Virus record (IMG/VR): IMGVR_UViG_3300021256_000068
DNA: 64,000 bases
Source of the DNA: an uncultured virus (IMG/VR IMGVR_UViG_3300021256_000068)
Lineage: Duplodnaviria > Heunggongvirae > Uroviricota > Caudoviricetes
Reading direction: 5' to 3' (one strand)
Shown: in pieces, positions 15,566 through 63,364 of the stretch
How the letters are laid out: each line of letters starts with the position of its first letter
Numbering within the stretch: the stretch's first letter is position 1
Notes under the pieces: model-generated
The model's database searches: none
Told to the model about the DNA's origin: nothing
The model's input: only the letters and a program-made list of their open reading frames with translations
Position numbers and translations under genes: made by a program

Positions 15566-17320
15566 ATGGGTAGAAAAGTATATAAGGCAAGAACCGATTA
15601 TTTCGAAATACCCGAACAAGGAGCAAGTGCTGGATATATTTATTTAATGTATACCGATAAAGCAAAAAGTAATTTATGTTATGTTGGTCAATCTACAGCT
15701 AATGGTATTAGTCGTTTAAAAGACCATTTTACTAATACGTATACGGAATCAGGTAGTTCGAAAGACCCATCAACTCAAATAATAAGACAATGACCACTAA
15801 AGTTTATTAATTTTGATTGCTATTTTAGTAAGGGCGGTCGATATTATGGCTTTTCTAGAGAAGTCTATGTTGAATTTTTTAGTAAATTTAGAAAGAAAGG
15901 TGGGGCGAGAATCGATCCAAAAGATTCAGCTACTGCTATTAAACAAAGTGGTAGCTTAATAAAAATAAAATTGGAGTATCTAAAAAATGACGATGGCTCT
16001 GATTATTACGTTACCGTAGGAGACCTTTTAAACGTAGCTGAAATTTTATGAGCTTGCAAAATGAAATTGCTTGGTTATCAAATGACAAATAACGATATGG
16101 GTGGTCAACAAATAGTTTGAGAATATCAAGACTTAAATGGTCAATGAATTCCTATTACGGCTAATGTAACAACTATTGACCAGTTTATTAAAATCATTTT
16201 GTCTACTAATTTAAGCGAGATTGATAAACAGATGCTTTTATCAGTAAAAAATAAAATTGACCCCTTATTAGAAAAAATGCTAGATGAAAATTTAGCAGAT
16301 ATATTAACTTATGCTATAATTGACACAATAAAAAATTGTAAAAATCTAATGTCAAAAGAGTCATCTATTTATTTAAGAGACGTAGTAAAAAACGTTATTG
16401 TTGAAATGTTTTCTGGAGGACGTAAAAAACGACTAAAAGAACTTAGCGGTAAGACTATGCAAGCATTTGAAAAATTTAAACAAGACCTAAATGCAGTATT
16501 AACTCCAGATGAAAAAATGTACGTAGGACTTATTGATATAGAAGAACAAATTGCTATAGAACAACCTATTATAGAGGATTTTATGAATAGTTTAATTTCA
16601 GACATTGCTGGTAAATTAACAACAAGCTTTTTACAGTTAAAGAAAAATTTAACAAAAGTATCTGAATTAGATTGGAAATTTTATATAAAAGACCATTTAA
16701 TATCTGTTAAAGGAAAAAATGGAGTAAATAAAGAAAGCGATATTAGAAAATCTTTCACTGCCTCAATTGAACAATATTTAAGACTTCCAACAGTGCAAAA
16801 TCTTTCAAATACAGGAACTTTATTGAGTGGAGATTTTCCAATTCCAGATGCTAAAATAACTGATGAAGAAAAATGAAATTGGACTGTAGAAAGATTTGAT
16901 ATAATCATGCGAAGAGTTATTGATAGCAATAAAAGTTTAATAGGTTTAGCATCAGCACCTGATGCCGCATCTCATTTCTTTCTTTATGATGATGAACACG
17001 CGCTATTAAGTTCTACCAAAGTAAAAACATCAACAGACACTTTAAGTTATCAAGTGAGAAAAGAATACTTTAAATGATTATCTCCTATGAATAGAATTTT
17101 AACTGAATGACGAGATTTCTTTTCTACTCTTTATGCTTTAGGAGATGCTAGATGGGATACTGAAGAAACAAGCGATGGTCAGATAGCAATATTAAAAGAA
17201 AGTTATAAAGTTGAGGGAGTATCAGAAGACCCTGTAAAAATTGGTTTTTTCTTAAAAGAGCCAGGTACTTTCTTTACACATACAGATAAAAATATGAGTG
17301 TTAAAACAGTAACATTCTAA
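15566..17320 (+). CDS. 584-aa protein with N-terminal GIY-YIG nuclease domain (TGA=Trp, 7 in-frame TGA)
   Basis: GYIYLMY...YVGQST...RLKDH...AEIL(W)...TNNDMGG; single frame with no TAA/TAG until 17318. Confidence 0.75.
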
Positions 17321-17344
17321 TATTTTAGAAAGGAAATTAATTAA

Positions 17345-17860
17345 ATGATTAAATTATTATGGAAAAGATTGAATAGTGAAGCTACTATTCCTACAAAGAG
17401 AGATGAAGATATCGGTTATGATATTTATGGAGTTTACAAGGAAGGTATTGATTTAGAAATACCACCACATCACACACAAATGATTCCTACTGGTTTAGTG
17501 GTAGCAATTTGTAATGAGGATAACACACTAAACTTCAATTATGGTTTAATTGCTAAAGACCGCGGCAGTACAGGTAGTGTAGGATTGCACACATATTGCG
17601 GCGTTATCGATGCTGGATATAGAGGAGAAATCTTTATTGCAATTCACAACTCTAACGAGTATCCTGTATATATTACCGATAGATTAAATAAAGTTTACGT
17701 TACTGATGATGCTTTATTTTATCCAAAGACAAAAGCCATTACACAGTTAATGGTAGTTGAAAATATAAAGACGAAATCAATTGAGGTTGATGAAGCAACT
17801 TTCGCCGCGCTAGCTAACACAGAGCGTGGAACTGGTAAGTTAGGTTCAAGTCAGAAATAG
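17345..17860 (+). CDS. dut: Trimeric dUTPase
   Basis: GYDIY, IPTG, RGSTG, GVIDAGYRGE, ERGTGKLGSS. Confidence 0.95.
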   Translation: MIKLLWKRLNSEATIPTKRDEDIGYDIYGVYKEGIDLEIPPHHTQMIPTGLVVAICNEDNTLNFNYGLIAKDRGSTGSVGLHTYCGVIDAGYRGEIFIAIHNSNEYPVYITDRLNKVYVTDDALFYPKTKAITQLMVVENIKTKSIEVDEATFAALANTERGTGKLGSSQK

Positions 17861-17925
17861 TCAGGAACGTGGCGTTGAATTTGAGATGCAGCGCATAAAC
17901 TTTCGCATAAAATTCTAAAACTTTC

Positions 17926-17954
17926 TTGACTTTTGCAGGAAAAAATAGTATAAT
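17926..17954 (+). promoter_or_regulatory. Sigma-A-type promoter
   Basis: TTGACT-17 nt-TATAAT. Confidence 0.7.
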
Positions 17955-17971
17955 ATATATGTATTAAGGAA

Positions 17972-18157
17972 GTGATAATATTGAAAGCAAAGAATTTAAT
18001 TAAGATTTTAAATCGTGAAAAGGATGCTGAAATAACAATTTGCGGCAAACCTATCAGCGGCTTCAATATTACTTACTCTTGTGATTCAAATGGAGATTGG
18101 TATATTAATTTAGAACCAAAAGATGATTCACAAGAAGAAAAAATTATTAAAAAATAG
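17972..18157 (+). CDS. Hypothetical protein
   Basis: ~60-aa ORF after a promoter. Confidence 0.55.
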   Translation: MIILKAKNLIKILNREKDAEITICGKPISGFNITYSCDSNGDWYINLEPKDDSQEEKIIKK

Positions 18158-18168
18158 TCAAAAACTTC

Positions 18169-18197
18169 TTGACAATATAGAAAAAATTTTATATAAT
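18169..18197 (+). promoter_or_regulatory. Sigma-A-type promoter followed by a ~200-nt leader
   Basis: TTGACA-17 nt-TATAAT. Confidence 0.8.
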
Positions 18198-23938: not shown

Positions 23939-24925
23939 ATGGCGAAAAATTTAAGCAAATGGCTTGATGAATTCGCAGAAGGCGGCGCTGATGTAACAGC
24001 ACCAGAAAATTGACCACAAACTTATAACAGTTCTGAACAAGTGCAAGCGGATTGAAATCAAACAGATAATACTGCAAAAGATTTCATTAAAAATAAGCCA
24101 GAGATTCCCGCCGCACAAGTACAAGCTGATTGGAATCAAACAAACACAGAAGCAAAAGATTTTATTAAAAATAAGCCTGAAATTCCTGCCGCAGTAAGTG
24201 GTACAAATGATGGTACAAATTGAACAAGTATAACAATAGGTAATGATACTTATCCAATTCCTGCTGGTGGAGAAACAAAATATTTACACATTGTAAAACT
24301 TCGCGGCGCTAATGTTTATAGACCTGGTGGAACAAAACTTGCTCAAACTTTTGATATGGCTATTGCCTTTGTAAATAATAAATCAGCTGCATATGCAAGT
24401 AATCAAGGACATACTGCAATTTATGATTATTTAGGTGTAACTCAAGGAACAACATCTCAATTTAAGCCGCTATTATATGGTTGGGTTTGAACTCAAATGG
24501 GAGAAACAACTGTTAGTGGTTTAACATCAACAGACTCTTGGAGAATAGACCTTACTTACGTAGATAGTAATAGTAATGAAACTTATTATGGTTATAGTAC
24601 TACTCATTCACTATTGTATCAACACGGAGGCGTAGCACCTGCAGTTACAGCTTTCCCTCCAACATTACTTTTCTCTAGTGATGGAACAAAGTTTAAAGTT
24701 GTAAAAATGACTAATAGTGTTATTACTGATAGCGATAATACTGATATTACAAGTAGCGTAACTTTAACTCAAACCCCTCTAAGTTGCGGAACTTTAGGAG
24801 TTTATAGATTGTTTGAAATTCAATCTTCAGGTTATCAAATAGCTTTTAGAGGAGAATTAGCTCCATATAGCACTTATGCTGGCGATTTTACTGCATATGA
24901 TACTGTAATACAAATTAAACAGTAG
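23939..24925 (+). CDS. LNxWLDEF-module protein 3 with QADWNQTD...IKNKP fibre repeats (328 aa, TGA=Trp)
   Basis: Single frame through TGAs at 24011, 24053, 24221, 24488; internal 26-aa repeat. Confidence 0.8.
24039..24193 (+). repeat. Two 78-nt tandem coding repeats
   Basis: QVQAD[TGA]NQTDNTAKDFIKNKPEIPAA / QVQAD[TGG]NQTNTEAKDFIKNKPEIPAA. Confidence 0.9.
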
Positions 24926-24990: not shown

Positions 24991-25019
24991 TTGACAAAAC
25001 CTCAAAATTTTTATATAAT
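24991..25019 (+). promoter_or_regulatory. Sigma-A-type promoter of the unit ending in tRNA(UCA)
   Basis: TTGACA-17 nt-TATAAT. Confidence 0.85.
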
Positions 25020-25774: not shown

Positions 25775-25870
25775 AGGGGCTTAGTGTAATGGCAGCACAG
25801 AGGTCTTCAAAACCTTAGAAAGCCGAGTCCAAACCGGCTGGTGCGGGTTCGAGTCCTGCAGCCCCTGCCA
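25775..25870 (+). tRNA. UGA-decoding tRNA (anticodon TCA), Trp-type body with long variable arm
   Basis: AGGGGCT/AGCCCCT-GCCA acceptor, GAGGT-CT TCA AA-ACCTT, extra AGCCG/CGGCT arm, GGTTCGAG. Confidence 0.85.
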
Positions 25871-25873: not shown

Positions 25874-25906
25874 AAAGGTTGATAAAAATATCAACCTTTT
25901 ATTTTT
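25874..25906 (+). terminator. Intrinsic terminator
   Basis: AAAGGTTGATA/TATCAACCTTT plus T-run. Confidence 0.75.
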
Positions 25907-25913
25907 ATAAATA

Positions 25914-47157: not shown

Positions 47158-47207
47158 AATAACACTAACCAAAAGAAAAAATTAGAAAGAAAAGAGAGAA
47201 AAGAAAA

Positions 47208-48104: not shown

Positions 48105-48106
48105 TT

Positions 48107-48135
48107 GAAGGGGAGTAATCCCCTTCTTATTTTTT
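48107..48135 (+). terminator. Intrinsic terminator
   Basis: GAAGGGGA-GTAA-TCCCCTTC plus T-run. Confidence 0.75.
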
Positions 48136-48166
48136 CAAATGACAAACGATAGAGAGGAGAAGAATT

Positions 48167-49536: not shown

Positions 49537-49561
49537 ATAGAAGTAAAAAGGAGCAGGTCTG

Positions 49562-51166: not shown

Positions 51167-51167
51167 T

Positions 51168-52250
51168 ATGCCAACATTAGCTGAATTAAGAGAACAATTA
51201 ACTGATGAAACAATTAAGGATATACTTATACAATATAATGTTGAACCAGTTAAAGAAGACGATGTTCAAATAGTATTCCCTACTTGTTGTCATAATTTAG
51301 AGGGCGGAAGTCCAAAATTATATTATTATAAAAATAATCACTTATTCCACTGTTATACTAAATGTAATAATAGTTTTGATATATTTGATTTGTTAATTAA
51401 GATGCATAAATTAAGAGGCGAAGAAATTACCCTTAAGCAAGCAATTAGTTTGTGTAATTTAGATACAAGTTATATGCAAGATGCAGATTTAGCAAGATAT
51501 AACATAAGTGATGATTTACGTTTTTTAAAAATAAGTAATAATCATAGATTGATAGATATAGATGAACTTCAATTTAAAATCTATGATAAAGATATATTAA
51601 GAAAATTCTCTTTTGATTATTTAGGTTTACAGCCTTGGATACAAGAAGGAATTAGCGTAGAAATGTTGCAAAAGTTCAATATTAAATGGGATTCTTTTAG
51701 ACAATGTATTATCATTCCTAATTTTGATATTAATGGCAATTTAATTGGACTAAGAGGAAGATTTTTCCGCACAGAAGATATTGCAAAAGGTAAATACAGA
51801 CCAATATATGACAATGGTACATTGTATAGTTACCCAACAGGAAAGAGCTTTTATGGTATTTATGAAAACCATAAAGCAATAGAAAGAAAGAAAATGTGTA
51901 TCATATTCGAAGGAGAAAAGAGCGTACTTTTATTCGGGTCTATTTATGGTGCAGATAATAATATTGCATTAGCAACATTAGGACAAAATATAACAAGAGA
52001 GCAAATTCAATATCTAAGACAAATGAGAGTAAGAGATGTAATCTTAGCATATGATACTGATTATGAAGATATAGAACAACTAAAAGAAGTAAAGCAAAAA
52101 TATATTGAAAAAGCAAAGATTTTTGCACCTTACTTTAATGTTAGTGTCTTAATTGACTATCATTTCTTATTACCATATAAAAGCAGTCCTATTGACGGTG
52201 GTAGAGAAATTTTTGAAAAAATATTAAGTGAACAATTAAAAGTAAGTTAG
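51168..52250 (+). CDS. dnaG: DNA primase (Zn finger plus TOPRIM)
   Basis: TCCHN...FHCYTKC, IIIP, IFEGEKS, AYDTD. Confidence 0.85.
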   Translation: MPTLAELREQLTDETIKDILIQYNVEPVKEDDVQIVFPTCCHNLEGGSPKLYYYKNNHLFHCYTKCNNSFDIFDLLIKMHKLRGEEITLKQAISLCNLDTSYMQDADLARYNISDDLRFLKISNNHRLIDIDELQFKIYDKDILRKFSFDYLGLQPWIQEGISVEMLQKFNIKWDSFRQCIIIPNFDINGNLIGLRGRFFRTEDIAKGKYRPIYDNGTLYSYPTGKSFYGIYENHKAIERKKMCIIFEGEKSVLLFGSIYGADNNIALATLGQNITREQIQYLRQMRVRDVILAYDTDYEDIEQLKEVKQKYIEKAKIFAPYFNVSVLIDYHFLLPYKSSPIDGGREIFEKILSEQLKVS

Positions 52251-52258
52251 AGGTAAAA

Positions 52259-54061
52259 ATGAAACCAATTAAGTTAAAACAAAACAGTTTAGAAAAAATA
52301 ACTATGAAAGACTATTTACAATTATGCGGCATCAATGAAGCTGATTGTGATAGTTTTATAGTAGCTCCAAAAGATTCTGACGAACTTAATCCAATTTTAT
52401 TAAAAAATATGCATCTTGCGGCGAAGACAGTGTATGAAAAATTAAATGATGATAATACAGTTGTCTTTGTTCAAGTTGATAGCGATATGGATGGTTGGAC
52501 ATCCGCTTGCGAATTTATCCAATATGTTCATATCCGTTTTCCTAAGATTAAGTTAATTTGGAGATTACATACAGGTAAACAGCATGGCGTTATTTTGGAC
52601 ACCGTTCCATCAGAAGCCAATTTAATCATTATTCCTGATGCAGGTTCAAATCAAGTTGAAGAATTAACCGCATTAGTTAATATGGGAAAGACTGTTGTAG
52701 TACTTGACCACCACCAAGTAGAAGATGAGATTGCGAGTGAAGCAAGCGGCGCAATTATCGTTAATAATCAAATGAGTCCAGACTTCCCTAATAAATCTTT
52801 AAGTGGTGCAGGTGTAGTTTATAAGTTCTTACAATATTTTGATACTTATTACTACAAATCTGATTTATATAAACAATTTGCAGATATTGCTACTTTTGGT
52901 ATATTAGCAGATGCAATGGATATGAGAACTTTAGATAATAACTTTATTGCATATGAAGGATTAAATCATATTCATAATAAACTAATCCGAGCAGTTATAA
53001 ATCGTCAAGCGGGAGATGGATTGTATGCGCGAATTGTAGATAAAGAGTCACCTACTAAAACTGAAGCAGTATTCTATGTTGCTCCTGTGTTTAATGGTTT
53101 AATTAGATATGGAGAACAAGAGGAAAAAGAAAAAGTATTTGATGCTTTTACTACTCCTGATAGTAGTGAAATAATTGAAACTATTTATAGAGGAACTAAA
53201 CGTAGTGAAAGCTTATATGATTATTGCGCGAGAATTGCAGTCAATGCAAAAAGTAGACAAGACAATGCGAAGAAAAAGAGTATGGCATTACTTGCTGAAA
53301 AAATTAATGAAGAAAATCACGACAAAGATAATTTAATTATAGTTACTCTATCTGGCAAAGAAACTGAAAAAGTTAGTCCAAATATTACAGGTCTTGTAGC
53401 TATGGATTTAGTTAAAGAATACAATCGTCCTGCTTTGGTTTTACGTGAAACTGAAGTTGATGGTAAAAAGCTATTTAGTGGTAGTGGTAGAAATGGTTGT
53501 TTTAGCGGTCTTGAAAGTTTATTAGATTTCTTACACGAAAGTAATTTAGTTGATTTCGCACAAGGTCATGATGGTGCTTTTGGTGTAATGGTTGAACCTG
53601 ATAAAGTTGAACAACTACGTGAGTATGCGGAAACTCATATTGATAAAAAAATGTTTGATGACCAAAACATTTTTGTTGATTATTATTTCTATGGATTAGA
53701 TAGTATAGATGTAAATGGACTTGCAGAGTTCGCTGAAGGACAAAAAATTTACTGCGGCACAATTCCTTCTCCAACTTTTGCATTTGAATTCGATATTGAT
53801 ACAAATGATTGTAGTTTAATGGGAAAAGAATCAAGTTCAATAAAATTTGCTAATAAATTCAATGATTTTATCGTATTTAAGCGTCCAGATATCGCCGCCT
53901 TAATTATGGACAATAGAGGAAGTAAAATTCACGTTACATTAGTAGGAAAACCTTCAATGTCACCATATGGTAGATTACAAATCACCGCTAGTGATTGTGA
54001 AGTTAGTAAAATAATAGCACAAACAACACCTGTAAAAAGGTCAGCATTAGATTTAATATAA
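52259..54061 (+). CDS. recJ: RecJ-like DHH ssDNA exonuclease
   Basis: DSDMDG, PDAG, LDHH, LSGAGVVYK, SGSGR, QGHDGAFG. Confidence 0.9.
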   Translation: MKPIKLKQNSLEKITMKDYLQLCGINEADCDSFIVAPKDSDELNPILLKNMHLAAKTVYEKLNDDNTVVFVQVDSDMDGWTSACEFIQYVHIRFPKIKLIWRLHTGKQHGVILDTVPSEANLIIIPDAGSNQVEELTALVNMGKTVVVLDHHQVEDEIASEASGAIIVNNQMSPDFPNKSLSGAGVVYKFLQYFDTYYYKSDLYKQFADIATFGILADAMDMRTLDNNFIAYEGLNHIHNKLIRAVINRQAGDGLYARIVDKESPTKTEAVFYVAPVFNGLIRYGEQEEKEKVFDAFTTPDSSEIIETIYRGTKRSESLYDYCARIAVNAKSRQDNAKKKSMALLAEKINEENHDKDNLIIVTLSGKETEKVSPNITGLVAMDLVKEYNRPALVLRETEVDGKKLFSGSGRNGCFSGLESLLDFLHESNLVDFAQGHDGAFGVMVEPDKVEQLREYAETHIDKKMFDDQNIFVDYYFYGLDSIDVNGLAEFAEGQKIYCGTIPSPTFAFEFDIDTNDCSLMGKESSSIKFANKFNDFIVFKRPDIAALIMDNRGSKIHVTLVGKPSMSPYGRLQITASDCEVSKIIAQTTPVKRSALDLI

Positions 54062-54073
54062 AAGGAGTTTACA

Positions 54074-54289
54074 ATGGAAGATTTAATGGAAACACAAAGC
54101 CGTCTTTGGGAACAAATAGAAAAAGAATATGGTATTAAATTCAAATTAGCAGATGGTAGTTTTAGACCTGTTAATGAATGGCTAGATGATATTTATCTAC
54201 AAAATCCTAGTCGTTTTGAAGAAATGATGGAAGATATATTTATTTATGGTGATGTTTTATTCGCCGATTTAATTGAACATAAGGAGTAA
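54074..54289 (+). CDS. Hypothetical protein
   Basis: AAGGAG SD; DGSFRPVNEWL. Confidence 0.7.
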   Translation: MEDLMETQSRLWEQIEKEYGIKFKLADGSFRPVNEWLDDIYLQNPSRFEEMMEDIFIYGDVLFADLIEHKE

Positions 54290-54292
54290 AAA

Positions 54293-54541
54293 ATGGATAA
54301 AACAATTAAAAATATTATTATTGATTATATAATGACAGCAATAATCTTTATCATATTAGAAACTATTCTAGTTGTAATCTCATATTACAATCCTAATTCT
54401 TGGTTAGCATCACATATAATTTATCGATATTGGTGGGCTTATGATTTAGGAGTCGTATTGGGATTATGTATTGTAGCATCAATTAAAATTGCTATTTATA
54501 TGTATAAGGTTAATCATAAAAAAGATAACGAAGAAAAGTAA
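54293..54541 (+). CDS. Small membrane protein
   Basis: Two hydrophobic helices; AAGGAG SD. Confidence 0.7.
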   Translation: MDKTIKNIIIDYIMTAIIFIILETILVVISYYNPNSWLASHIIYRYWWAYDLGVVLGLCIVASIKIAIYMYKVNHKKDNEEK

Positions 54542-54547
54542 TTTTCA

Positions 54548-54576
54548 TTGACAAACAGTAAAAAATATTCTATAAT
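54548..54576 (+). promoter_or_regulatory. Sigma-A-type promoter
   Basis: TTGACA-17 nt-TATAAT. Confidence 0.85.
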
Positions 54577-54603
54577 AATAATATAGAAAGGAAAAGTGAT
54601 ATT

Positions 54604-57600
54604 ATGAAAAGAGATTATATTTCTATTCATAACCACACTGAGTTCTCTAACATTAAAGTTATTGATAGTATCAATAGAGCTCCTGAGCTAATAGATTATG
54701 CTTGGGAGCTTAATTTAGGAGGATTAGCAATCACAGAACATGATTGTCTAAGTGGTGTAATTAAATTAATAGAAGCATATAGAAAAAAACTTGATAAGGA
54801 ATGGGAAGCCGCTTACCCTGATAAAGAAAATGTTCACGATTACGAACAAATGTCTAAAGATTTAGATTTTAAAGTAATTATTGGTAATGAGATTTATCTT
54901 AGTGAAGAAGGATTATGCGAAGGTGGCTATGGTCATTTTTGGCATTTAATTTTATTAGCAAAAGATGAAGAAGGTTGGAAACAATTAAAGCAATTAAGTT
55001 CTGCCGCATGGAAACGTGCTTGGTTTAGAGGAATTTTAAGAACTCCAACATATCCAAGTGATTTATTTGAGTTTGTTAAAGGTGGACATTTAATTTGTTC
55101 TACTGCTTGTTTAGGTAGTTATCCAGCTTGGTGTTGGAAACAAATAAGTAATATTAGTGACGATGCAGATGAGTGGGATTTAGATTATGACTATAATGAA
55201 GATGGAACTAAGACTTTAAAAGATAAACAGTATTATTTAGATAAGTTAGATAATCATCTTGCCGCAATGGAAGAGTTATTTGGTGTAGGAAACTTTTTTA
55301 TTGAACTTCAACCAAATGAACTCGGTAGCGAACAAAATGAATATAATGAGTTTATGATTAATAGATATAAGGGACAATATCCTTTTGTATTTAGTACTGA
55401 CTCTCATTATATGAAAGAAGATTTAAGACAAATCCATACCGATTTCTTAGCATCAAAGAGTTCAGAAGATAGAGAAATAACATCTTTCTATAAGTATGCT
55501 TATATGATGAGCCAAGAAGAAGTTCATAGCCGTATGATTGATTATATGACAGAAGAATTCTTTGAAGATATGGTTAAAAACACAAAATATATTGGCGAAC
55601 AATGTCATTATTATCCTCTTGAACAACCAAAAGTTATTGCAAAAGTAGAATATGAGCATTATGATGAATACGAGTCTGATTTGGAAGTATTCAATGATGT
55701 AACTGCGGACGAATATCCATATTTTTATGAATATTTGCACACAGATAATAGAGCAGACCATTATTTTATGGAATTAATAGCCCATGGTTTTATTAATAAG
55801 TATCAAGAAAGTTGGGATACTGAAGTTTATTATAAGCGACTTGAAGAAGAACTATGGACAATTAGAGAAGTAGGTAACGGTATCAATCAATCAATGAGTG
55901 ATTACTTTACTTGTATGAGTAAAATGGTTAACTTGATGTGGGAAGCCGGTTCTTTAGTTGGTCCAAGCCGTGGTTCAGCAGGAGCATTATTAATAAATTA
56001 TTTATTAGATATAACACAAATAGACCCAATCTTTTTAGATTTACCTTATGTATGGCGTTTTATGCACCCATCTAGACCTGACTATCCAGATATTGACGTT
56101 GACTCTGAGTCAGATAAGCGTCAAGCAGTATTTAATAAAATAAGAGATTATTTTAGAAGTATTGGTGGAGATGTTATTAACGTTTGTACATTTGGTACTG
56201 AAGGAACTAAGTCCGCATTAAAAACTGCGGCAAGAGGTCTTAATATTAACTTAGATGAAGTTGCTTATGTAAGTTCAATGGTTCCAAATGAAAGAGGTTT
56301 TGATTGGAGCTTACATGATTGTTATTATGGTAATGGCGACGATCGTATGCCTATTAGTGCGTTCAAAAAAGAAATGGATGCAAATCCGCAATGGTGGAAA
56401 TTAGCACAAAGTATTGAAGGATTAGTAACTAGACTTGGTGTTCACGCATCAGGAGTTGTCTGTGTTAATGGAGATTTCATTGAACACGGAAGTTATATGA
56501 AGACAAATAGTGAGCAATTAGTAACTGCATTTGACTTACATGACCAAGAAAAATGTGCATTAATTAAATATGATATGTTAACTGTTTCCGCACTTGACCG
56601 TATTCATCAATGTATGAATTATATGTTGGAAACAGGAGATATGGAATGGAAAGGTTCATTAAAAGAAACTTATGATTATTATATCAATCCTAATAAGTTA
56701 GATTACGAGACACCTGAAATGTGGGATATGGCAGCTCAAGGTAAAATTAGAGCGTTATTCCAGTTCGATACAATCGTAGGTGGTCAAAGTATTAAGTATA
56801 TTGAGCCTAAAAACTTACAACAATTAGCTATCGCAAACTCAATAATGAGACTAATGGCACCAGAGGGTGAAGACCAGCCAATAGATATTTATGTAAAATA
56901 CAAAAGAGTTCCGCAATTATGGTATAATGATATGAAAAATGCGGGATTAAATGATGATGAGATAAAAGTGCTTGAAAAGTATTTAAAAGTTAAAAATGGT
57001 GTTGCTGACTCACAAGAAGTAGTTATGCAATTATCAATGGACCCACAAATTAGTGGATTCTCAATGAAAGACGCCAATAGATTAAGAAAGATTATTGCAA
57101 AGAAAAACTTCAAAGATATTGAAAGTATGCATGAGTTCTATCTTGAAAGCGGCGCAAAACTTGGTACAAGTAAAGCAATGTTAAATTATGTTTGGGATAA
57201 ACAATTTAAGTTATCATTTGGTTATTCATTCTCTACAATTCACACTACTGGTTATAGCGTTATTGCCGTTCAAGAAATGAATTTAGCTTATCATTATCCA
57301 TCAATTTATTGGAACTGTGCTTGTTTAAGTGTAGATAGTAGTGCAATTAGTGCGCAAGACTTCTATAATTTAATTGATGATGGTGTAATTGAAGTTGATG
57401 AAGATGAAAAGAAAAAAGTAGCAAGTAAGATGGATTATTCAAAGATTGCGGCAGCACTTAGTGACTTCCGTAATAGTACATCAATTTTATTGCCAGATGT
57501 AAATAAGTCAAGATTAAGTTTTACACCAGATGCAGAAGATAACACAATTTTATATGGTTTAAAAGGTATCACAAAAGTAACTGACCCAGCAATAGAAGAA

Positions 57601-58644
57601 ATAATGATGAATAGACCATTCGCATCATTAAATGACTTTTTAGATAGAACAACTAAAAAGACAGTGTCATCTGATAAAGTATTAAACTTAATTAAAGCAG
57701 GTGCATTTAATGAAATTGAGGGTAAGTCAACAAGAGAAATATTAACTAAATATATTGATATGACAAGTGATAAAAAGAATAGGTTAACTCTTCAAAATGC
57801 AAATGCGTTAATAGATAGAAACTTGTTTCCTGATGAATTATATAAAGAGTGTGAAGTATATAAATTAACAAAAGAATTAAGAAAACATAGAACTGCGGAT
57901 AAACTTTGGTATAGAGTAGATTTTAGTTTCCCAGGAGAAAAAGAAGATATTTGGAGAGAAGTATTTAAAGCTTCTAATCCAAAGATTGAATATATTGATG
58001 ATGCTCCAGTTATCAACTCTGATGCTTGGGATAATTATTATGACCGCAATATGGATAAGTTAAGAGTTTATATTAAGAATAATAGTGCGGAATTATTAGA
58101 GAAATTAAATAACTCATTATTCCAAGAAAGATGGGATAAATATTGTCAAGGAGATGAACTTGATTGGCAACTTGAAAGTTTAAACTTCTTCTTTGATGGT
58201 CACCCATTAAGTATTGCCGCGCGTGAACTTGGTATAGAGTTAACTCCTTTAAAATATTTAGAGGAAGATGCACAAGACGGATTTTTTGTTATAAAAGGTA
58301 AAGAAATACCTAAGATGAAATTATATAGTATTGCGGGAACAGTTATTGATAGTAATACAACAAAAGGTACTGTAACTATTCAAACTCCAGATGGCGTTAT
58401 AACATTAAAGATTTTTAAGAGTTTATATGCAATCTTTGATAAAGTAGTATATAGCGCAGATGGAATGGAAATAGTTCAAGATAGTTTCTTCGCAAAAGGA
58501 ACAAATCTATTAGTCACTGGTATTAAAAGAGGTTCAACTTTTGTTCCTAAGGTATACAAATCAACAGGTAGAAAAGCAATATTAAAAATAAACTTAACTG
58601 AAGATAGACATTTTAAAAACTTTGAAGAAAAAATGGAGGCTTAA
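54604..58644 (+). CDS. dnaE: DNA polymerase III alpha subunit (family C)
   Basis: PHP HNHTEFS and TDSHY, GPSRGSAG, PDIDVD, GVHASGV, KYDML, YSFSTIH. Confidence 0.95.
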   Translation: MKRDYISIHNHTEFSNIKVIDSINRAPELIDYAWELNLGGLAITEHDCLSGVIKLIEAYRKKLDKEWEAAYPDKENVHDYEQMSKDLDFKVIIGNEIYLSEEGLCEGGYGHFWHLILLAKDEEGWKQLKQLSSAAWKRAWFRGILRTPTYPSDLFEFVKGGHLICSTACLGSYPAWCWKQISNISDDADEWDLDYDYNEDGTKTLKDKQYYLDKLDNHLAAMEELFGVGNFFIELQPNELGSEQNEYNEFMINRYKGQYPFVFSTDSHYMKEDLRQIHTDFLASKSSEDREITSFYKYAYMMSQEEVHSRMIDYMTEEFFEDMVKNTKYIGEQCHYYPLEQPKVIAKVEYEHYDEYESDLEVFNDVTADEYPYFYEYLHTDNRADHYFMELIAHGFINKYQESWDTEVYYKRLEEELWTIREVGNGINQSMSDYFTCMSKMVNLMWEAGSLVGPSRGSAGALLINYLLDITQIDPIFLDLPYVWRFMHPSRPDYPDIDVDSESDKRQAVFNKIRDYFRSIGGDVINVCTFGTEGTKSALKTAARGLNINLDEVAYVSSMVPNERGFDWSLHDCYYGNGDDRMPISAFKKEMDANPQWWKLAQSIEGLVTRLGVHASGVVCVNGDFIEHGSYMKTNSEQLVTAFDLHDQEKCALIKYDMLTVSALDRIHQCMNYMLETGDMEWKGSLKETYDYYINPNKLDYETPEMWDMAAQGKIRALFQFDTIVGGQSIKYIEPKNLQQLAIANSIMRLMAPEGEDQPIDIYVKYKRVPQLWYNDMKNAGLNDDEIKVLEKYLKVKNGVADSQEVVMQLSMDPQISGFSMKDANRLRKIIAKKNFKDIESMHEFYLESGAKLGTSKAMLNYVWDKQFKLSFGYSFSTIHTTGYSVIAVQEMNLAYHYPSIYWNCACLSVDSSAISAQDFYNLIDDGVIEVDEDEKKKVASKMDYSKIAAALSDFRNSTSILLPDVNKSRLSFTPDAEDNTILYGLKGITKVTDPAIEEIMMNRPFASLNDFLDRTTKKTVSSDKVLNLIKAGAFNEIEGKSTREILTKYIDMTSDKKNRLTLQNANALIDRNLFPDELYKECEVYKLTKELRKHRTADKLWYRVDFSFPGEKEDIWREVFKASNPKIEYIDDAPVINSDAWDNYYDRNMDKLRVYIKNNSAELLEKLNNSLFQERWDKYCQGDELDWQLESLNFFFDGHPLSIAARELGIELTPLKYLEEDAQDGFFVIKGKEIPKMKLYSIAGTVIDSNTTKGTVTIQTPDGVITLKIFKSLYAIFDKVVYSADGMEIVQDSFFAKGTNLLVTGIKRGSTFVPKVYKSTGRKAILKINLTEDRHFKNFEEKMEA

Positions 58645-58646: not shown

Positions 58647-59762
58647 ATGAATATAATGATATGAGATATAGAATGATATTATGCCGAAGATAAAACTAAT
58701 TTAATAAATGTTGATGCTATGAAAATAAGTAGTTATCATAAACAACGCGGCGATAATACTTATCTTGTAAAATCAAAATATGATATTAAGCGTGAGTGGG
58801 ATATGATGTATATAATTAAAGATACGACAGAGAGTCCCACTCCTCCATTAAGTTTAACATTAAACAATCCAAAAATAATAAAAATTGGTCGTGGCTGGAA
58901 TAATTCATCTTCATTAAGCAATATTGTCGCCGCTTGTCGTCCCGACTATTTACTATATCCAAATATGCAAAAACAAGATAATACTGCTCTTGAAAGGTCT
59001 GAGTATTGGCGTTTTCTTGATGATGAAGGAAATTTGTTGCCGCTTATTCAAGATGCTTCAAGAAAAGAAAAAAGAAACTTTGCGGTCGTTGCAGATAAAG
59101 GTTTGTGAGAAAAAGATGAAAAAATTATTTTACAAGTTCTTAAAAAAGTACAAAGATTAGGAAAATTTGTTTCATTTTTAGAACCAATTTCAATCAAAAA
59201 GTTATTATCTAATAAAATACTAACACAAGAGTTTTTAAAATTAAAATTTAAGCAAAATAATAATATTAGATGGGCAGATTTTAATCCCGATACGGCAGAT
59301 AATTTTATATACTATTTTTACAATGATTTCAAAAGAGAACATAAAAATGTAGTATTTGCACCTATTGAAATCAATGCAAAAGATATAAATGAAGATAATA
59401 TATTAAAATATACTCACGTTTTAGCTAGAAGTATGTTAAATGGATTGAAAGTTATTATAGTTTGTGATAAAAATAAAAAGTATCCTCAAATTGTGAAGAT
59501 ACTAAGCGATTATAGTAAATGCGGCAAAAATTTATCTTGATTAGAATATATTACGTATCGTTATCATAAGAATATTAAGGACAATTCGTCCGCTATTAAG
59601 TTGTGGCTTAGTCCTAGTAGATGGGATAGTAATTTTAGAGAATTATTAAGATTAACTTATAAAGATTTTGCTTTTTTATGTGTTAGACCAAATAAAACAA
59701 TTTTAAATGGTAATGATATACCTTTAAACGTTATAGCAAAAACTTTTAAATATAATATATAG
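58647..59762 (+). CDS. Hypothetical protein, N-terminus like phage radical-SAM-associated proteins (371 aa, 4 TGA)
   Basis: GGAGG SD; AMKISSYHKQRGD; no CxxxCxxC seen. Confidence 0.7.
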
Positions 59763-59771
59763 GAGTTAAAG

Positions 59772-60365
59772 ATGAGATATAAAAAGAGTAATTATATTTG
59801 TGTATTAGATACTGAAACAACAAATGTATATTGAAATACTTGCGCACCAATCCAAATCGCCGCAGAGATATGTGATGCAGAAGGAAATATAGTAGATACT
59901 TTCAATGAGAGAATTAAAACAACTCATAAAATCGATCCAGGCGCAAGCGAAGTTCATGGAATTTATGCTGAAGATTTAGTTAATTGCCGAAAAGAAAGTG
60001 AAGTTATTTATGATTTTTGTGCATGAATGCAGAATTGAAATTGTGATATGATTTTAAGTTATAATGGCGAAACTTTTGATAGACCAATGCTTAACTTAAG
60101 ATGTCAATTATTTAAGATTGATACTCCTTATTTTGATAAAGACAAATATGGTGTTGATGTTTATGCAAGAGATGTAAAAGATGCAAAAAAGCAAGACCTA
60201 TTTGGTTTAAAATCATTAGGAAGAAAATGGAAATTAACTTTAGTTGCTGAAAAACTTGGTATTAGTACAGAACATGCTCACGATGCACTTGCGGACGTAG
60301 ATATGACTAGACAAGTATTTTATAAACTTGACCCATTAATTTACCCTGAAGATTGGGAAGAATAA
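59772..60365 (+). CDS. DnaQ-like 3'-5' exonuclease (3 TGA)
   Basis: LDTETT, SEVHGI, YNGETFD, AHDALADV. Confidence 0.9.
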
Positions 60366-60395
60366 AAAGACTAGGTTAAACCTAGTCTTTATTTT
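60364..60395. terminator. Bidirectional terminator between convergent genes
   Basis: AAAGACTAGG/CCTAGTCTTT. Confidence 0.75.
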
Positions 60396-61482
60396 ATCTT
60401 TGTGACCCAAAAGATATATACGTGTTTTTAGTAATAGTAATATCAAAACTAAAATTATGAGAAGCTATATTTTCGATATACTCCCCATTAACCTCTATAT
60501 AAGGCACTAAACCAGAAGGAGAATCATTCATTTCACCTTCAAAATGAAGAATATCTCCGCTATGTAATCCTTCTATTGTATATCCCACAGAATATCCATA
60601 CACAAGATCATTTATTCGAGTTTTAAATTCATCTCAATATCCTTCTTCTGAATCCATTATATCTTGTGGAGCTATATCTAATAAATAAGCGAATGGACCT
60701 TTTGGCTTAAGCCCTACGGCTTCACCATTAATAGTAATATTAACATATTTGTATTCATGATCTTCTGGAACAGCATCAGTATATAATATAAGTTCATCAA
60801 AAGACATTTCGCCATTTACTTTTTTCCAACCTTCATTAATAGTAGTAACTATTTCATAATGGTCAATTTCTCCAATCAAGAATATAGAAATATCTTCTAA
60901 AGATAATCCATTACTACTTAAACTATCAACAAATTGTTGTGTAATTCTAAATTGTAGCGGATTAGGAATAGGATCATCATCCCAAGTACCACCAAATTTT
61001 AATGTATCATAAGCTATATCATCATTATATCAATGTACTGCACAAGGATTATAATTTAGTTCAGCAAGAGGGTCATCAAAATCAAATGTAATTTCCATAC
61101 TTCCATCTTCATCTGAATATCTTTTTCTAAAAGTTCTTAATACTGGTACAGTATCAACAAAATTATCTAAAGTAAAATCGAAATCTGCATTATAAGTTCC
61201 TTGATATGATTCTGTAGGAATGTCTTCTTGTTTAACAGATACAATATCATTAACTTCAATTTCTTTATATACTGGAACTTGATTACTTGTTTCTTCATGA
61301 AACCAGCTATATATATCACCATTAGGTAATTTATATAATTTATTAACGTTTCCTGTAGTTGGTAATGTATTTACTAATTCAATTCCACTACCACTAACAT
61401 TATCTGGTCATTCTGGCACTTCATTTGGATTTGCGCCATTTACAACGAATTCATCTAACCAGTCATTTAATTTCTTTCCCAT
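60394..61482 (-). CDS. LNxWLDEF-module protein 4, putative virion surface protein (362 aa, 3 TGA)
   Basis: MGKKLNDWLDEFVVNGANPNEVPE(W)PD; VNTLPTTG fibre-like motif; frame checked free of TAA/TAG. Confidence 0.8.
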
Positions 61483-61496
61483 TATTATCTACCTCA

Positions 61497-61892
61497 TTAG
61501 TTTAATTTATTTTTTGCATTATTAATTTGAACTTCAGCTTGTTGCTTAATCCAAGCTTCTAAATCACCATAATTTGCTACAATATAATCTTTTGCTTGTT
61601 GTGTTAAAGTACCTTTTACATAATCAACGGTCTTCTTCATTGCAGCCGCTTGTGCTTCTTTATCCCATACAGTTGTGCCTTTAATTGCTTCAACGTATGT
61701 TTGATAAGTATATTTTACACCATCAAATACAATATCTTTTGCACCAGAAAGAATTTTTTGAATTTTCTCATCTTTAATACCTGCAATCTTTGCATTTACC
61801 CATCTAACTATGAAACCACCTACAACAGTAAGCACTGTGGTAATTACCCAAAATGCAATTTGATTTGCTAAATTTTCAAACATAATATTCAT
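61497..61892 (-). CDS. Putative holin (LL-H-like)
   Basis: N-terminal TM helix followed by VKYTYQTYVEAIK...WDKEAQ. Confidence 0.6.
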   Translation of the reverse strand: MNIMFENLANQIAFWVITTVLTVVGGFIVRWVNAKIAGIKDEKIQKILSGAKDIVFDGVKYTYQTYVEAIKGTTVWDKEAQAAAMKKTVDYVKGTLTQQAKDYIVANYGDLEAWIKQQAEVQINNAKNKLN

Positions 61893-61903
61893 CCCCTATC
61901 CAA

Positions 61904-62341
61904 TTATTTAATTAAAGCTAAAACTACAGCGGTAACGGCAGTTAATACTGCTGTAATAGTTGCGGCAAAAAATGCTCATTTACCCTTAATAGTCTCTTTT
62001 CTCTCTTCAGAAGTTGTTTGTTGTTGTTCTTGTATCGCTTTCATCTGACCTTCTAGTTTACTAATTTTATCTTCTAGTTCGTCTGTTTTCTTAAAAAGTT
62101 CTTTTGTTCTATTCTTATTATCTACATAGTGAATAGTGTCTTTCTCTTCAATCTCTTTAATTGTTTCACCTTGAGTTGTTTGTAAATTTAATAACTTCCC
62201 TTGATTAATAACTACATCATCTAATTTTTTAGATATATTGTCTAAAGATTTCGAAGTTAAAGCCAAACTAGATTCTGTCTTTCCTATACTTTCCGTAAGA
62301 GAGAATAGACGCGCGAGTACTGTTTGTTCGTCCATTATCAT
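61904..62341 (-). CDS. Coiled-coil protein with C-terminal TM helix (XhlA-like lysis-cassette protein; 145 aa, TGA at 61976)
   Basis: GGTGGTGA SD; readthrough adds (W)AFFAATITAVLTAVTAVVLALIK. Confidence 0.7.
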
Positions 62342-62459
62342 ATAATCACCACCGCAATAAATGCCTCTCTTATTCTACTTTTATTATAGTTCGTTTCTAC
62401 GAAATTAGCAATTTTCGGAAAACAAGATTATACTATTTATGTGTAAGGAGATGATAATT

Positions 62460-62633
62460 ATGGAAATTACCATTAACGGAATAGAAAAAAATATTAGCGA
62501 CTTTTCAACTGATGTATTATCAGTAGAAGAAAAGAGAATTGAAAGAAAAATGTTTAATATGGAATTTGTTTCTGATGAAGAACAAGCCGCTTTTATTGCT
62601 ATTAAAGAAGAATTAGAAAGAAGAAGTGAGTAA
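62460..62633 (+). CDS. Hypothetical protein
   Basis: AAGGAG SD. Confidence 0.6.
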   Translation: MEITINGIEKNISDFSTDVLSVEEKRIERKMFNMEFVSDEEQAAFIAIKEELERRSE

Positions 62634-62635
62634 TT

Positions 62636-63364
62636 ATGGCAAAGTTATCTGCGGAAAAAATTAATGAAGAATTACGCAAAAAAGACTTTGAATTAGTTGA
62701 TTGTAGTGGATATGAAAATTTAACAAGTTTTATCACAGTCAAATGTCCTAAAGGTCATATTACTCAAACTAATTTAAAAAGTTTTAGACACGAAAGTTAT
62801 CAATGTCCAGAGTGCGATAAAAGTATAGATTTTAGCAATCCTACTGAAGTTCCTGATAAAGGAGGCAAATTTCGTGTAATTGCTTTCGACCAAGCAACTG
62901 AACACTTTGGATTGAGTATTTTTGATGATGGAAAATTAATATACTATAAATTATTTGTATTTACTGGCTCTGCTATCAATAGAATGGTAAAGATTAGAAA
63001 AATGATAGATGAACTTGTAATTAAACAATGAAAACCAAATTATATTGTTTTTGAAGATATACAATATCAAAATGGATATATTACTTTCAAAACTCTTGCT
63101 ATGTTATTAGGTGTAGTTCACGAAGTATGTCAAGCTAATGACATTCCTTTTGAATGTGTTAGTCCTAACGTATGACGTAAATATGCGGGAACGTGCGGCA
63201 AAACTAGACAGGAAGAGAAAATGTTGTCGATAGCAGTAGTAAAAGAAAAGTATAATGTATCTGTAACTGATGACGTTGCGGAAGCAATATTGATTGGTAG
63301 ATACGGTGCAGCGCACCATTACGCTGAAGCACCAATATTATTTGGAAAGAAAAAAACCTCTTAA
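62636..63364 (+). CDS. ruvC: RuvC-like Holliday junction resolvase with N-terminal Zn finger (242 aa, 2 TGA)
   Basis: CPKGH..CPEC; IAFDQAT, IVFEDIQ, SPNV(W)RK, DDVAEAILIG. Confidence 0.8.

What the first reader, a model, noticed from the sequence alone, without database searches (positions are those of the whole stretch)
15566..63364. TGA reassigned to Trp, but only in a subset of genes: two codon regimes in one genome
Seen: about 18 genes need TGA readthrough at positions where Trp fits (rnhA GG*A, nrdG ES*DF, RuvC PNV*RK, GIY-YIG QAD*). Internal evidence: the tandem repeat has TGA at 24053 where its copy has TGG at 24131, and paralogs have EWP (TGG) versus N*P and E*P. I found no confident gene ending in TGA. 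Yet dnaE (about 26 Trp by my count), nrdD, gyrA/B, helicase, primase, recJ, ligase and all genes in 0-15 kb use only TGG, although an AT-rich genome should favour TGA. Known: stop-codon recoding is described in gut phages and proposed to time late and lytic genes. Inference: TGA-free genes can be translated at once in a standard-code host, while TGA genes need the phage tRNA(UCA).
Basis: partly seen in the sequence, partly recalled or inferred. Interest (0 to 1): 0.8.

Follow-up and report, generated by a model that had tools for sequence, protein, structure and literature searches.

The report
Phage TGA-Trp recoding, two-headed suppressor tRNA
This is part of a large gut phage that spells some tryptophans with the stop codon TGA but keeps TGA out of its early and DNA-replication genes, a pattern already described for such phages, and it reads TGA with an odd tRNA that carries a second hairpin copying the normal tryptophan anticodon.

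Summary
From 15566 on, 18 ORFs carry 51 in-frame TGA. TGA swaps with TGG between orthologues and aligns with Trp in solved PFL and RNase H homologues. The spread over genes is non-random (0 of 20,000 permutations). In TGA-free genes TGG never became TGA in a relative about 60% identical (0 of 41), while G-ending Lys/Glu/Gln codons became A-ending in 87 of 128. The replisome is also TGA-free in G029 and G033, and a relative's structural genes are TGA-rich.

This matches the published model for TGA-recoded gut phages, with replication genes in standard code and late genes recoded (Borges et al. preprint). The codon pattern is a new member of a known kind.

The decoding device looks new. The tRNA(UCA) at 25775-25870 has a Trp-type acceptor and a second arm whose 7-nt loop reads U-CCA-AA. 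Of 42 unique Trp-type long-arm tRNA(UCA) in an unbiased IMG/VR sample, 41 share it, with stem covariation. Amber suppressors carry a Gln-anticodon counterpart. I found no paper describing it. This scan noted the design before on other DNA. Its function, recruiting host TrpRS, is inferred.

The parts
1..15500 (+). Early region: small ORFs, tRNAs, tmRNA and ROOL RNA behind perfect sigma-70 consensus promoters; effectively TGA-free
   Evidence: 52 TGG against 2 TGA, both in the doubtful 5' end of ORF 12972. Eight perfect TTGACA-17-TATAAT sites lie on the + strand at 303, 1976, 4117, 4560, 5617, 9133, 14241.
8680..8753 (+). Phage tRNA-Trp(CCA) with a G-A mismatch at the top of the anticodon stem
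   Evidence: ARAGORN, Rfam, sequence and fold. The mismatch is my reading of the sequence.
15566..17320 (+). First TGA-using ORF (584 aa, 7 TGA and 3 TGG), no family match
   Evidence: The G002 orthologue has 9 TGA.
23939..24925 (+). ORF with an internal tandem repeat in which TGA (24053) and TGG (24131) fill the same repeat position
24991..25019 (+). Perfect sigma-70 consensus promoter heading the unit that ends with the tRNA(UCA)
   Evidence: 0 mismatches. Two ORFs (25064, 25367) lie between it and the tRNA.
25775..25870 (+). Suppressor tRNA(UCA), 96 nt: 7-bp Trp-type acceptor, G73, decoding arm 25800-25816 with anticodon UCA at 25807-25809
   Evidence: ARAGORN labels it 'SeC'. Rfam tRNA scores 57.1 bits with a 23-nt insertion in the variable region. 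The MFE fold shows five helices.
25821..25839 (+). Second anticodon-like arm of the tRNA: 5-bp stem, loop G-U-C-C-A-A-A flanked by an A/C mismatch, CCA at 25829-25831
25874..25913 (+). Hairpin followed by a T-rich run just after the tRNA (terminator-like)
   Evidence: Sequence. The same hairpin is picked up incidentally.
29770..32718 (+). Largest TGA-rich ORF of the window (982 aa, 11 TGA and 8 TGG), no family match
33040..37916 (+). Ligase (0 TGA of 9 Trp codons) and NrdD (0 of 8), TGA-free, behind the perfect promoter at 32773, with a 3-TGA small ORF (34195) between them
37933..42040 (+). Low-TGA metabolic genes: NrdG (1 TGA), GrcA-like piece (0), PFL body (1), small ORF (0), membrane ORF (4), ThyX (2)
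42194..58644 (+). Replisome block, TGA-free: GyrB, GyrA, AAA_24, DnaB, primase, RecJ, DnaE (0 TGA of 43 Trp codons in these seven), behind perfect promoters at 42125, 46810 and 54548
   Evidence: The block is TGA-free in relatives as well.
58647..60365 (+). Two TGA-using ORFs (4 and 3 TGA) that start 2 and 9 nt after the preceding stop, directly downstream of dnaE
60394..64000 (-). Start of the opposite-strand late and structural module (tail-fibre-like genes), with the plus-strand RuvC-like ORF 62636-63364 (2 TGA) embedded in it
   Evidence: The continuation in relative G001 holds portal and tail-fibre families and is TGA-rich.

Best explanation
The window is roughly 60% of a 110-120 kb phage of ruminant-gut Firmicutes. 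The family includes IMG/VR records G001-G004 and the complete G029 and G033.

The phage reads TGA as tryptophan through its own suppressor tRNA(UCA) at 25775-25870. That tRNA sits in a unit headed by a perfect host-type sigma-70 promoter.

The host probably uses the standard code and release factor 2. Genes that must be translated before the suppressor has built up are therefore kept free of TGA by purifying selection. These are the small early genes, ligase, NrdD, gyrase, DnaB, primase, RecJ and DnaE.

Accessory, unknown and structural genes drift towards TGA under the genome's strong A/T pressure. They can be made full-length only once suppression works. This gives a translational delay that acts even inside shared operons.

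Shown: TGA = Trp, the uneven and conserved distribution, selection against TGA in the replisome, and the tRNA with its promoter.

Inferred: the standard-code host, the timing, and the idea that the tRNA's second CCA arm lets host TrpRS charge it.
For: TGA = Trp:
- Window TGA aligns in G002 with TGA 29, TGG 3 and other codons 5 (three of them Tyr or Phe).
- Window TGG aligns with G002 TGA 18 times.
- PFL codon 14 aligns with W in the 2 shown alignments that cover it.
- RNase H codon 28 aligns with W in 3h08 and with Y in E. coli-type chains.

Uneven use: 0 of 20,000 permutations reach the observed heterogeneity. The same holds in 8 of 8 genomes tested, each 0 of 5000.

Selection rather than codon bias:
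- 4060 A-ending against 901 G-ending two-fold purine codons, with dnaE at 83% A.
- In TGA-free genes, G to A at Lys/Glu/Gln is 87 of 128 in G003 against 0 of 41 for TGG to TGA (p = 1e-16).
- The figures are 29 of 48 against 0 of 27 in G004, and 154 of 345 against 3 of 80 in G002.
- In TGA-using genes the constraint is weak: 12 of 37 against 50 of 87.

Conservation: DnaE, GyrA, GyrB, DnaB, primase, RecJ and ligase are TGA-free in G029. In G033 they are also TGA-free apart from 1 TGA in a split DnaE piece.

Late genes: G001's portal, terminase-like and tail genes carry TGA, for example 16 TGA against 6 TGG and 17 against 5.

Code-4 signature: plus-strand ORF content rises from 15,778 to 18,774 aa, and crude coding density from 0.706 to 0.848.

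Promoters: 19 sites with at most 1 mismatch against 1.95 expected. 14 are perfect, and one lies at 24991 upstream of the tRNA.

No phage TrpRS or RF domain was found in the window or in G001, G002, G003, G060, G025.

Host lead: PFL is 77-78% identical to uncultured Clostridia. All 5 such genomes tested have a prfB match, 4 of them over the cut-off.

Published model: passages of Borges et al..
Against: - The host is not identified. PFL similarity shows a donor lineage only.
- There are no expression or proteome data, and no RNA run holds the stretch.
- TGA-bearing genes are not a separate transcription class. They sit in the same sigma-70-type units as TGA-free genes. NrdG starts 16 nt after NrdD, and ORF 58647 starts 2 nt after dnaE. 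NrdD's own activase carries a TGA.
- The boundary between regimes drifts among relatives. The UvrD-like helicase is TGA-free here but has 2 TGA in G029 and G033. The exonuclease and RuvC-like genes use TGA here but not in G029.
- The number of TGA-free ORFs alone is not extreme: 24 of 42 against a permutation maximum of 25.
- Only 2 of 6 structure-database queries gave informative TGA sites.
- The closest relative, G002, uses more TGA, yet its tRNA(UCA) arm lacks the CCA loop.
Confidence: 0.75

Rival explanations
1. There is no timing programme. Suppression always competes with RF2 and is never complete. Genes that need a high yield of full-length product, or that hold many Trp codons (DnaE has 26), avoid TGA because of the cumulative loss. 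Other genes tolerate it.
For: TGA-using and TGA-free genes share promoters and operons. The tRNA itself lies behind an early-type promoter. Even TGA-using genes hold less TGA (about 30-50% of Trp codons) than the 82% A share of comparable codons. The capsid-like gene of G001 (phrog_4088) has 0 TGA among its 2 Trp codons.
Against: Very long virion proteins that must be made full-length carry many TGA: 1773 aa with 16, 1579 aa with 7, 564 aa with 17. Portal and terminase-like genes carry TGA too. The whole 15-kb early region of short, Trp-poor genes is also TGA-free, which a cumulative-loss argument does not predict.
Confidence: 0.17
2. The host itself reads TGA as Trp, and the TGA/TGG pattern reflects expression level or tRNA supply rather than incompatibility.
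For: The host was not identified. The phage carries both a CCA and a UCA Trp tRNA, as code-4 bacteria do.
Against: In a code-4 host there is no reason for absolute exclusion of TGA from the replisome over long divergence (0 of 41 and 0 of 27 against 68% and 60% at comparable codons). The PFL donors carry prfB. The published survey predicts standard-code hosts for such clades.
Confidence: 0.05
3. TGA-free genes are recent imports from standard-code genomes, so the pattern is history and not selection.
For: PFL and NrdD look host-derived. PFL has 1 TGA here and 3 in G001 and G002, as if TGA were accumulating.
Against: The replisome genes are TGA-free in six divergent family members at 42-67% protein identity, while synonymous A/G sites in the same genes are largely randomised.
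Confidence: 0.02
4. The extra arm of the tRNA is not a TrpRS handle. It could be a leftover of an anticodon-arm duplication, a site for a modification enzyme or a phage factor, a shield against host anticodon nucleases, or the second state of a bistable tRNA that also reads UGG.
For: G002 lacks the CCA loop yet uses TGA heavily. Phages with short-variable tRNA(UCA) and no TrpRS exist: 2 of 3 records that are at least 90% complete. Both arms sit in canonical junction contexts. The UCA arm follows the D arm by 1 nt. The CCA arm lies 4 nt before the T stem in 42 of 52. Two folds are therefore conceivable.
Against: The loop sequence and the stem pairing are conserved across very different tRNA bodies, with covariation, so the arm is not a mere leftover. 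Amber suppressors show the parallel Gln-anticodon arm, which fits a synthetase-identity role: both TrpRS and GlnRS read the anticodon (review PMC9976931, passages). None of 43 long-arm records holds a TrpRS.
Confidence: 0.4

Closest known systems
TGA-recoded (code 4) gut phages of Borges et al., especially the ~127 kb 'Agate' lineage from cattle and pigs (preprint 10.1101/2021.08.26.457843; passages read)
   Same: TGA is read as Trp. TGA accumulates in structural and lysis genes while the replication machinery stays in standard code. A suppressor tRNA(UCA) is present. The setting is the animal gut, with a similar genome size. The model is that standard-code genes are translated first.
   Different: Clade membership was not tested, as no reference sequences are held here. 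TGA-using genes here are interleaved with TGA-free ones inside sigma-70-type operons. No TrpRS/RF1 'code change operon' like that of the Jade phages was found. The passages I read do not mention the second-arm structure of the tRNA. Their supplementary tables could not be opened.
crAss-like phages with TAG or TGA reassigned, mostly in late genes (Yutin et al. 2021, PMC7886860; passages)
   Same: Block-wise use of a reassigned stop codon and phage-encoded suppressor tRNAs.
   Different: A different phage order and host phylum. Here the partition holds gene by gene within operons.
tRNA-Trp(UCA) of code-4 bacteria such as Mycoplasma and Spiroplasma (established knowledge, recalled)
   Same: A UCA anticodon on a Trp-type body decodes UGA as Trp.
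   Different: Those tRNAs are ordinary class I tRNAs working with a co-adapted TrpRS and no RF2. Here a 23-nt second arm is present, and the tRNA must work in a host that probably has RF2.
Bacterial selenocysteine tRNA (the label ARAGORN gives)
   Same: UCA anticodon, long variable arm, G73.
   Different: The acceptor stem has 7 bp, not 8. The general tRNA model wins in Rfam. TGA sits at Trp positions at a rate of about 1 in 4 Trp codons. The true Sec-type phage tRNAs in the same sample form a separate class with 8-bp acceptors and no CCA loop.
Anticodon-arm mimics that bind synthetases outside tRNAs (for example the thrS operator; recalled; the term appears in review PMC9976931)
   Same: A stem-loop that copies a cognate anticodon loop is enough to recruit a synthetase.
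   Different: Those are regulatory mRNA elements. Here the mimic is built into a decoding tRNA.
tRNA-Trp(CCA) with a 4-bp anticodon stem that reads UGA (PMC13092985; abstract start and passages)
   Same: Another route to UGA = Trp. The window's own tRNA-Trp(CCA) has a mismatch at the top pair of its anticodon stem.
   Different: That is near-cognate reading by a CCA anticodon. No function was tested for the phage tRNA.

Membership tests
Stop-codon-recoded phage, TGA to Trp, with standard-code replication genes | In-frame TGA in conserved genes at positions that are Trp in relatives | tested here: met
   29 TGA/TGA, 3+18 TGA/TGG swaps with G002; W at the aligned site.
Stop-codon-recoded phage, TGA to Trp, with standard-code replication genes | Longer, contiguous ORFs and higher coding density when TGA is sense | tested here: met
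   The measure is crude: reading TAA as sense also raises it to 0.835, against 0.848 for TGA.
Stop-codon-recoded phage, TGA to Trp, with standard-code replication genes | Phage-encoded suppressor tRNA with anticodon UCA | tested here: met
Stop-codon-recoded phage, TGA to Trp, with standard-code replication genes | TGA enriched in structural or lysis genes and absent from replication genes | tested here: met
   Lysis genes were not identified.
Stop-codon-recoded phage, TGA to Trp, with standard-code replication genes | Host uses the standard code | tested here: inconclusive
   The only evidence is a donor-lineage lead and the inference from selection against TGA.
Agate clade (Borges et al.) | Placement within the clade in a large-terminase tree | not testable with these tools
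   No Agate reference sequences are held. There was no megablast match in the phage collection.
Selenocysteine tRNA | 8-bp acceptor stem with 5-bp T stem, and SECIS-dependent use at rare UGA codons | tested here: not met
   The acceptor has 7 bp. The Sec-type class in the same sample differs. 53 TGA lie at Trp-type positions in 64 kb.
Bacterial tRNA-Trp (identity set as in review PMC9976931) | G73, A1-U72 and G-C pairs 2-71 to 5-68 | tested here: met
   Sequence. G73 is present in 51 of 52 and A-U at 1-72 in 39 of 52 relatives. Identity elements are from passages.
Bacterial tRNA-Trp (identity set as in review PMC9976931) | C34 C35 A36 in the anticodon arm, and a short variable loop | tested here: not met
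   The decoding arm has UCA. CCA is present only in the second arm. The variable region is 23 nt longer than the model.
Class II tRNA (Leu, Ser, Tyr type long variable arm) | A variable arm with a small loop and no anticodon-loop signature | tested here: not met
   The arm has a 7-nt loop N-U-CCA-A-A on a 5-bp covarying stem.

The most novel reading that the evidence does not exclude
The suppressor is a 'two-headed' tRNA. One anticodon arm (UCA) reads the stop codon on the ribosome. A second, tandem arm shows the cognate CCA anticodon loop to the host's tryptophanyl-tRNA synthetase. Amino-acid identity is thereby uncoupled from the codon read, and a phage can rewrite the code of a standard-code cell with a single RNA gene, without its own synthetase. 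The same design with a Gln anticodon loop in amber suppressors would make this a general phage device. Because each arm sits in a canonical junction on one side, the molecule might even switch between two L-shapes.
Probability: 0.5. Interest if true: 0.85.

Novelty: new variant of a known kind. Interest (0 to 1): 0.58.

Why it matters
The codon pattern adds a well-quantified case to a published model. It gives a direct measure of selection against a reassigned stop codon in early and replisome genes, and it shows that the gating works gene by gene inside operons driven by host-type promoters.

The tRNA bears on a question the published survey left open: how standard-code hosts charge phage suppressor tRNAs when no phage synthetase is present. 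If the second arm is the synthetase handle, three things follow.
- It explains why such tRNAs are missed or mislabelled. ARAGORN of 52 'SeC' and misses 5.
- It gives a natural design for suppressor tRNAs that are charged by unmodified host enzymes.
- It is testable with simple aminoacylation and reporter assays.

Tried and rejected
- No whole genome is held for the window.
- Megablast of 23 kb against the phage collection found nothing. tblastn with DnaE found only SPbeta-like polymerases at about 36% identity.
- NrdG and ThyX have no solved relatives by sequence. The TGA sites of PhoH and the exonuclease fall in unconserved positions.
- Pfam gave no family for the TGA-rich ORFs 15566, 29770, 58647, 62636 and 40940. 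It also gave none for three TGA-free minus-strand genes of G001.
- TrpRS association test: 0 of 15 long-arm records at least 90% complete hold a TrpRS, against 1 of 3 short-arm ones. The direction fits, but the test is far too small to count.
- A 1339-aa, TGA-rich gene of G012 looked like a recoded DnaE by size but is unrelated.
- The crude coding-density measure is confounded in A/T-rich DNA. It is weak for G022, G033 and G059.
- No RNA holder was listed for the tRNA region.
- The double-arm pattern was not found in 401 genomes of the class of the PFL donors. That is a sample, not proof of absence.
- Selenocysteine was rejected as the meaning of TGA.
- Six literature searches found no description of a second anticodon-like arm in suppressor tRNAs (and the listing in 54). 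Passages of eight papers gave none either. Figures and bioRxiv supplements could not be seen.

Full report
**What the window is.** It is 31% G+C. Nearly all genes lie on the plus strand up to about 60.4 kb, and a minus-strand module starts after that. It encodes seven tRNAs, a tmRNA and a ROOL RNA. It also encodes a full replication set: DnaE-type polymerase, GyrA and GyrB, DnaB, primase, RecJ, ligase, NrdD and NrdG, plus PFL and ThyX. No whole genome is held, and the phage collection has no close relative.

IMG/VR holds relatives. G001 and G002 are about 89% identical in DNA. G003 and G004 are about 60% identical in DnaE protein. The complete, terminally repeated G029 (118 kb) and G033 (113 kb) are 57-59% identical in DnaE. 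G001 runs 52 kb past the window's end through a structural module with portal and tail-fibre families. Sequencing runs that hold the tRNA region are sheep, goat and bovine gut metagenomes, all DNA.

**The observation.** With TGA read as sense, 18 ORFs from 15566 on hold 51 in-frame TGA. DnaE has 26 TGG and no TGA. Ten replication and nucleotide genes together have 0 TGA among 62 Trp codons. The first 15.5 kb has 52 TGG and 2 TGA, and both TGA lie in a doubtful ORF start.

I counted 77 ORFs of 60 aa or more and left out minus-strand ORFs before 60390 as shadow frames. Heterogeneity of TGA over genes exceeds all 20,000 permutations, for the whole window and for 15566 onwards. The number of TGA-free ORFs by itself is not extreme (24 of 42, permutation maximum 25). 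The signal comes from the Trp-rich genes.

**What TGA means.** Across orthologues, window TGA aligns in G002 with TGA 29 times, with TGG 3 times and with other codons 5 times, three of which are Tyr or Phe. Window TGG aligns with G002 TGA 18 times. G001, G003 and G004 behave alike. The alignments scored TGA as W, which can help only at the margin for such close pairs.

I also translated with X at TGA and searched solved structures. The PFL site aligns with W in both shown alignments that cover it. The RNase H site aligns with W in one chain and with Y in the E. coli type. Two further queries had no hits, and two had the site in unconserved positions. Selenocysteine, which is ARAGORN's label for the tRNA, does not fit these data.

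**Selection, not bias or history.** Two-fold purine-ending codons are 82% A-ending in the window and 83% in dnaE. Mutation pressure should therefore favour TGA.

| Comparison | G-ending Lys/Glu/Gln to A-ending | TGG to TGA |
|---|---|---|
| TGA-free genes, G003 | 87 of 128 | 0 of 41 (p = 1e-16) |
| TGA-free genes, G004 | 29 of 48 | 0 of 27 |
| TGA-free genes, G002 | 154 of 345 | 3 of 80 |
| TGA-using genes, G002 | 50 of 87 | 12 of 37 |

DnaE, GyrA, GyrB, DnaB, primase, RecJ and ligase are TGA-free in G029. In G033 they are TGA-free apart from one TGA in a split DnaE piece. Recent import of these genes is thus excluded. A code-4 host would give no reason for such exclusion.

The partition is not rigid. 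The UvrD-like helicase has TGA in G029 and G033 but not here. The exonuclease and the RuvC-like gene show the reverse.

**Transcription context.** The window has 19 matches to TTGACA-17-TATAAT with at most one mismatch, against 1.95 expected and a shuffle maximum of 6. Fourteen are perfect, and 13 of those lie on the plus strand. They head the early region and the ligase/NrdD, GyrB, replisome and DnaE units. A near-perfect site precedes ORF 15566.

TGA-using genes lie inside these units. NrdG starts 16 nt after NrdD. ORF 58647 starts 2 nt after dnaE, and the exonuclease starts 9 nt further on. Any gating by TGA therefore acts at translation, not through a separate promoter class.

The tRNA(UCA) lies at the end of a unit headed by the perfect promoter at 24991. 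A hairpin and a T-run follow it.

**Comparison with what is known.** The preprint of Borges et al. (passages) reports TGA-recoded clades in animal guts with standard-code predicted hosts. [quoted passage not shown] It proposes that standard-code-compatible genes are translated first. Yutin et al. describe the same logic for crAss-like phages.

The host here remains a lead only. PFL is 77-78% identical to uncultured Clostridia. All five such genomes tested have a prfB match, four of them over the cut-off.

**The tRNA.** Its body matches the bacterial Trp identity set given in a review (passages): G73, A1-U72 and G-C pairs at 2-71 to 5-68. The Rfam tRNA model aligns the UCA arm as the anticodon arm and places a 23-nt insertion in the variable region. 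That insertion folds into a 5-bp stem (25821-25839) with a loop reading U-C-C-A-A-A, which is the loop of a Trp(CCA) anticodon arm.

In an IMG/VR sample fixed only by the UCA arm and the T arm (91 loci), variable regions are either 9-11 nt or 26-33 nt, with none between. By unique tRNA there are three classes:
- 16 short.
- 41 long with a CCA hairpin. All 41 have G73, and 32 have A-U at 1-72.
- 24 long without a CCA hairpin. Of these, 23 have the extra acceptor pair of Sec-type tRNAs.

The single Trp-type exception is G002's tRNA. So 41 of 42 Trp-type long arms carry the CCA loop.

In a wider set of 52 unique tRNAs, stem pairs 2-4 are paired in 52 of 52, with many pair types. In this set the TCCAAA loop was imposed by the search pattern. 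On 44 distinct rows, 93.2% of cells pair against 54.7% after shuffling (0 of 500), and 29-49% when the partner is slid. All five pairs change on both sides. The CCA arm lies 4 nt before the T stem in 42 of 52, which is the normal variable-loop length. The two arms are 2-7 nt apart in 51 of 52.

ARAGORN labels 45 of the 52 as SeC, 2 as unknown, and misses 5.

**A parallel in amber suppressors.** A pattern search gave 54 loci, 44 of them unique, of tRNA(CUA) with a second hairpin whose loop reads C-U-C-U-G-A-A. The two loop-proximal pairs are formed in 43 of 44. Of the 38 long ones, 28 show a Gln-type YUG loop closed by at least two pairs. By eye, four more show a CUG or UUG loop with a variant flank.

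**How it may work.** None of 43 records with the two-arm tRNA(UCA) encodes a TrpRS (0 of 15 among those at least 90% complete). One of 7 records with a short-variable tRNA(UCA) does, right beside the tRNA. That contrast is too small to count. The window family has neither a TrpRS nor a release-factor domain. The pattern was not found in 401 genomes of the PFL donors' class.

My reading, at about even odds, is that the second arm presents the cognate anticodon to the host synthetase. G002 speaks against it being indispensable: it lacks the CCA loop and uses TGA freely.

Searches and passages of eight papers gave no description of such an arm. I could not see figures or bioRxiv supplements. After I had reached this reading, the scan's index showed that earlier agents had noted the same design on other genomes, for both UCA and CUA tRNAs. 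Those notes are not independent evidence.

**Verdict.** The timing step and the host code remain inferred. The codon pattern is ordinary for this kind of phage. The decoding tRNA is the unusual part and deserves bench tests.

Noticed in passing
window 38433-40929: PFL appears split. The 675-aa body (38678-40705) matches only positions 2-47 of the 106-position glycyl-radical domain. A separate 77-aa ORF just upstream (38433-38666) matches positions 52-106, like a GrcA-type spare part. A 74-aa ORF with no family follows. G001 and G002 have the same layout.
   Followed up: partly
window 8680-8753: The phage's own tRNA-Trp(CCA) has a G-A mismatch at the top of its anticodon stem, leaving 4 pairs. 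G002's copy is weaker still. A 4-bp stem is reported to let CCA read UGA (PMC13092985), so this could be a second TGA-reading device placed in the early region.
   Followed up: no
window 3672-5198: A phage-borne tmRNA (3672-4063) and a full-length ROOL RNA (4615-5198, 166 bits) sit among the early genes. Perfect promoters lie at 4117 and 4560.
   Followed up: no
window, 14 sites (303 to 54548): There are fourteen perfect TTGACA-17-TATAAT promoters. Most have the extended form TTGACAAAA and an A-rich spacer, which is far more uniform than a consensus requires.
   Followed up: partly
L010 14051-14148 (G002): The closest relative's tRNA(UCA) keeps the same body and arms but has an unrelated 33-nt variable region without a CCA loop and without a clear stem. 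ARAGORN calls it tRNA-Phe(aaa).
   Followed up: partly
L299-L352 and L353-L466 (IMG/VR loci): Amber suppressor tRNA(CUA) genes carry a second hairpin showing a Gln (CUG or UUG) anticodon loop. This is the counterpart of the Trp design.
   Followed up: partly
L467-L557 (IMG/VR loci): Twenty-three unique phage tRNA(UCA) genes have an extra acceptor pair and an ordinary long arm. They look like genuine selenocysteine-type or allo-tRNAs carried by phages.
   Followed up: no
G001 58373-62918 (L008/L009), minus strand: Three large genes (538, 461 and 478 aa; 0 TGA of 18 Trp codons) with no family match sit TGA-free next to the TGA-rich structural module. They may be needed early, for example for late transcription.
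   Followed up: partly
G033 50713-53019: The DnaE homologue of G033 aligns over only 764 residues as one ORF. The gene may be split by an intron, an intein or a frameshift.
   Followed up: no
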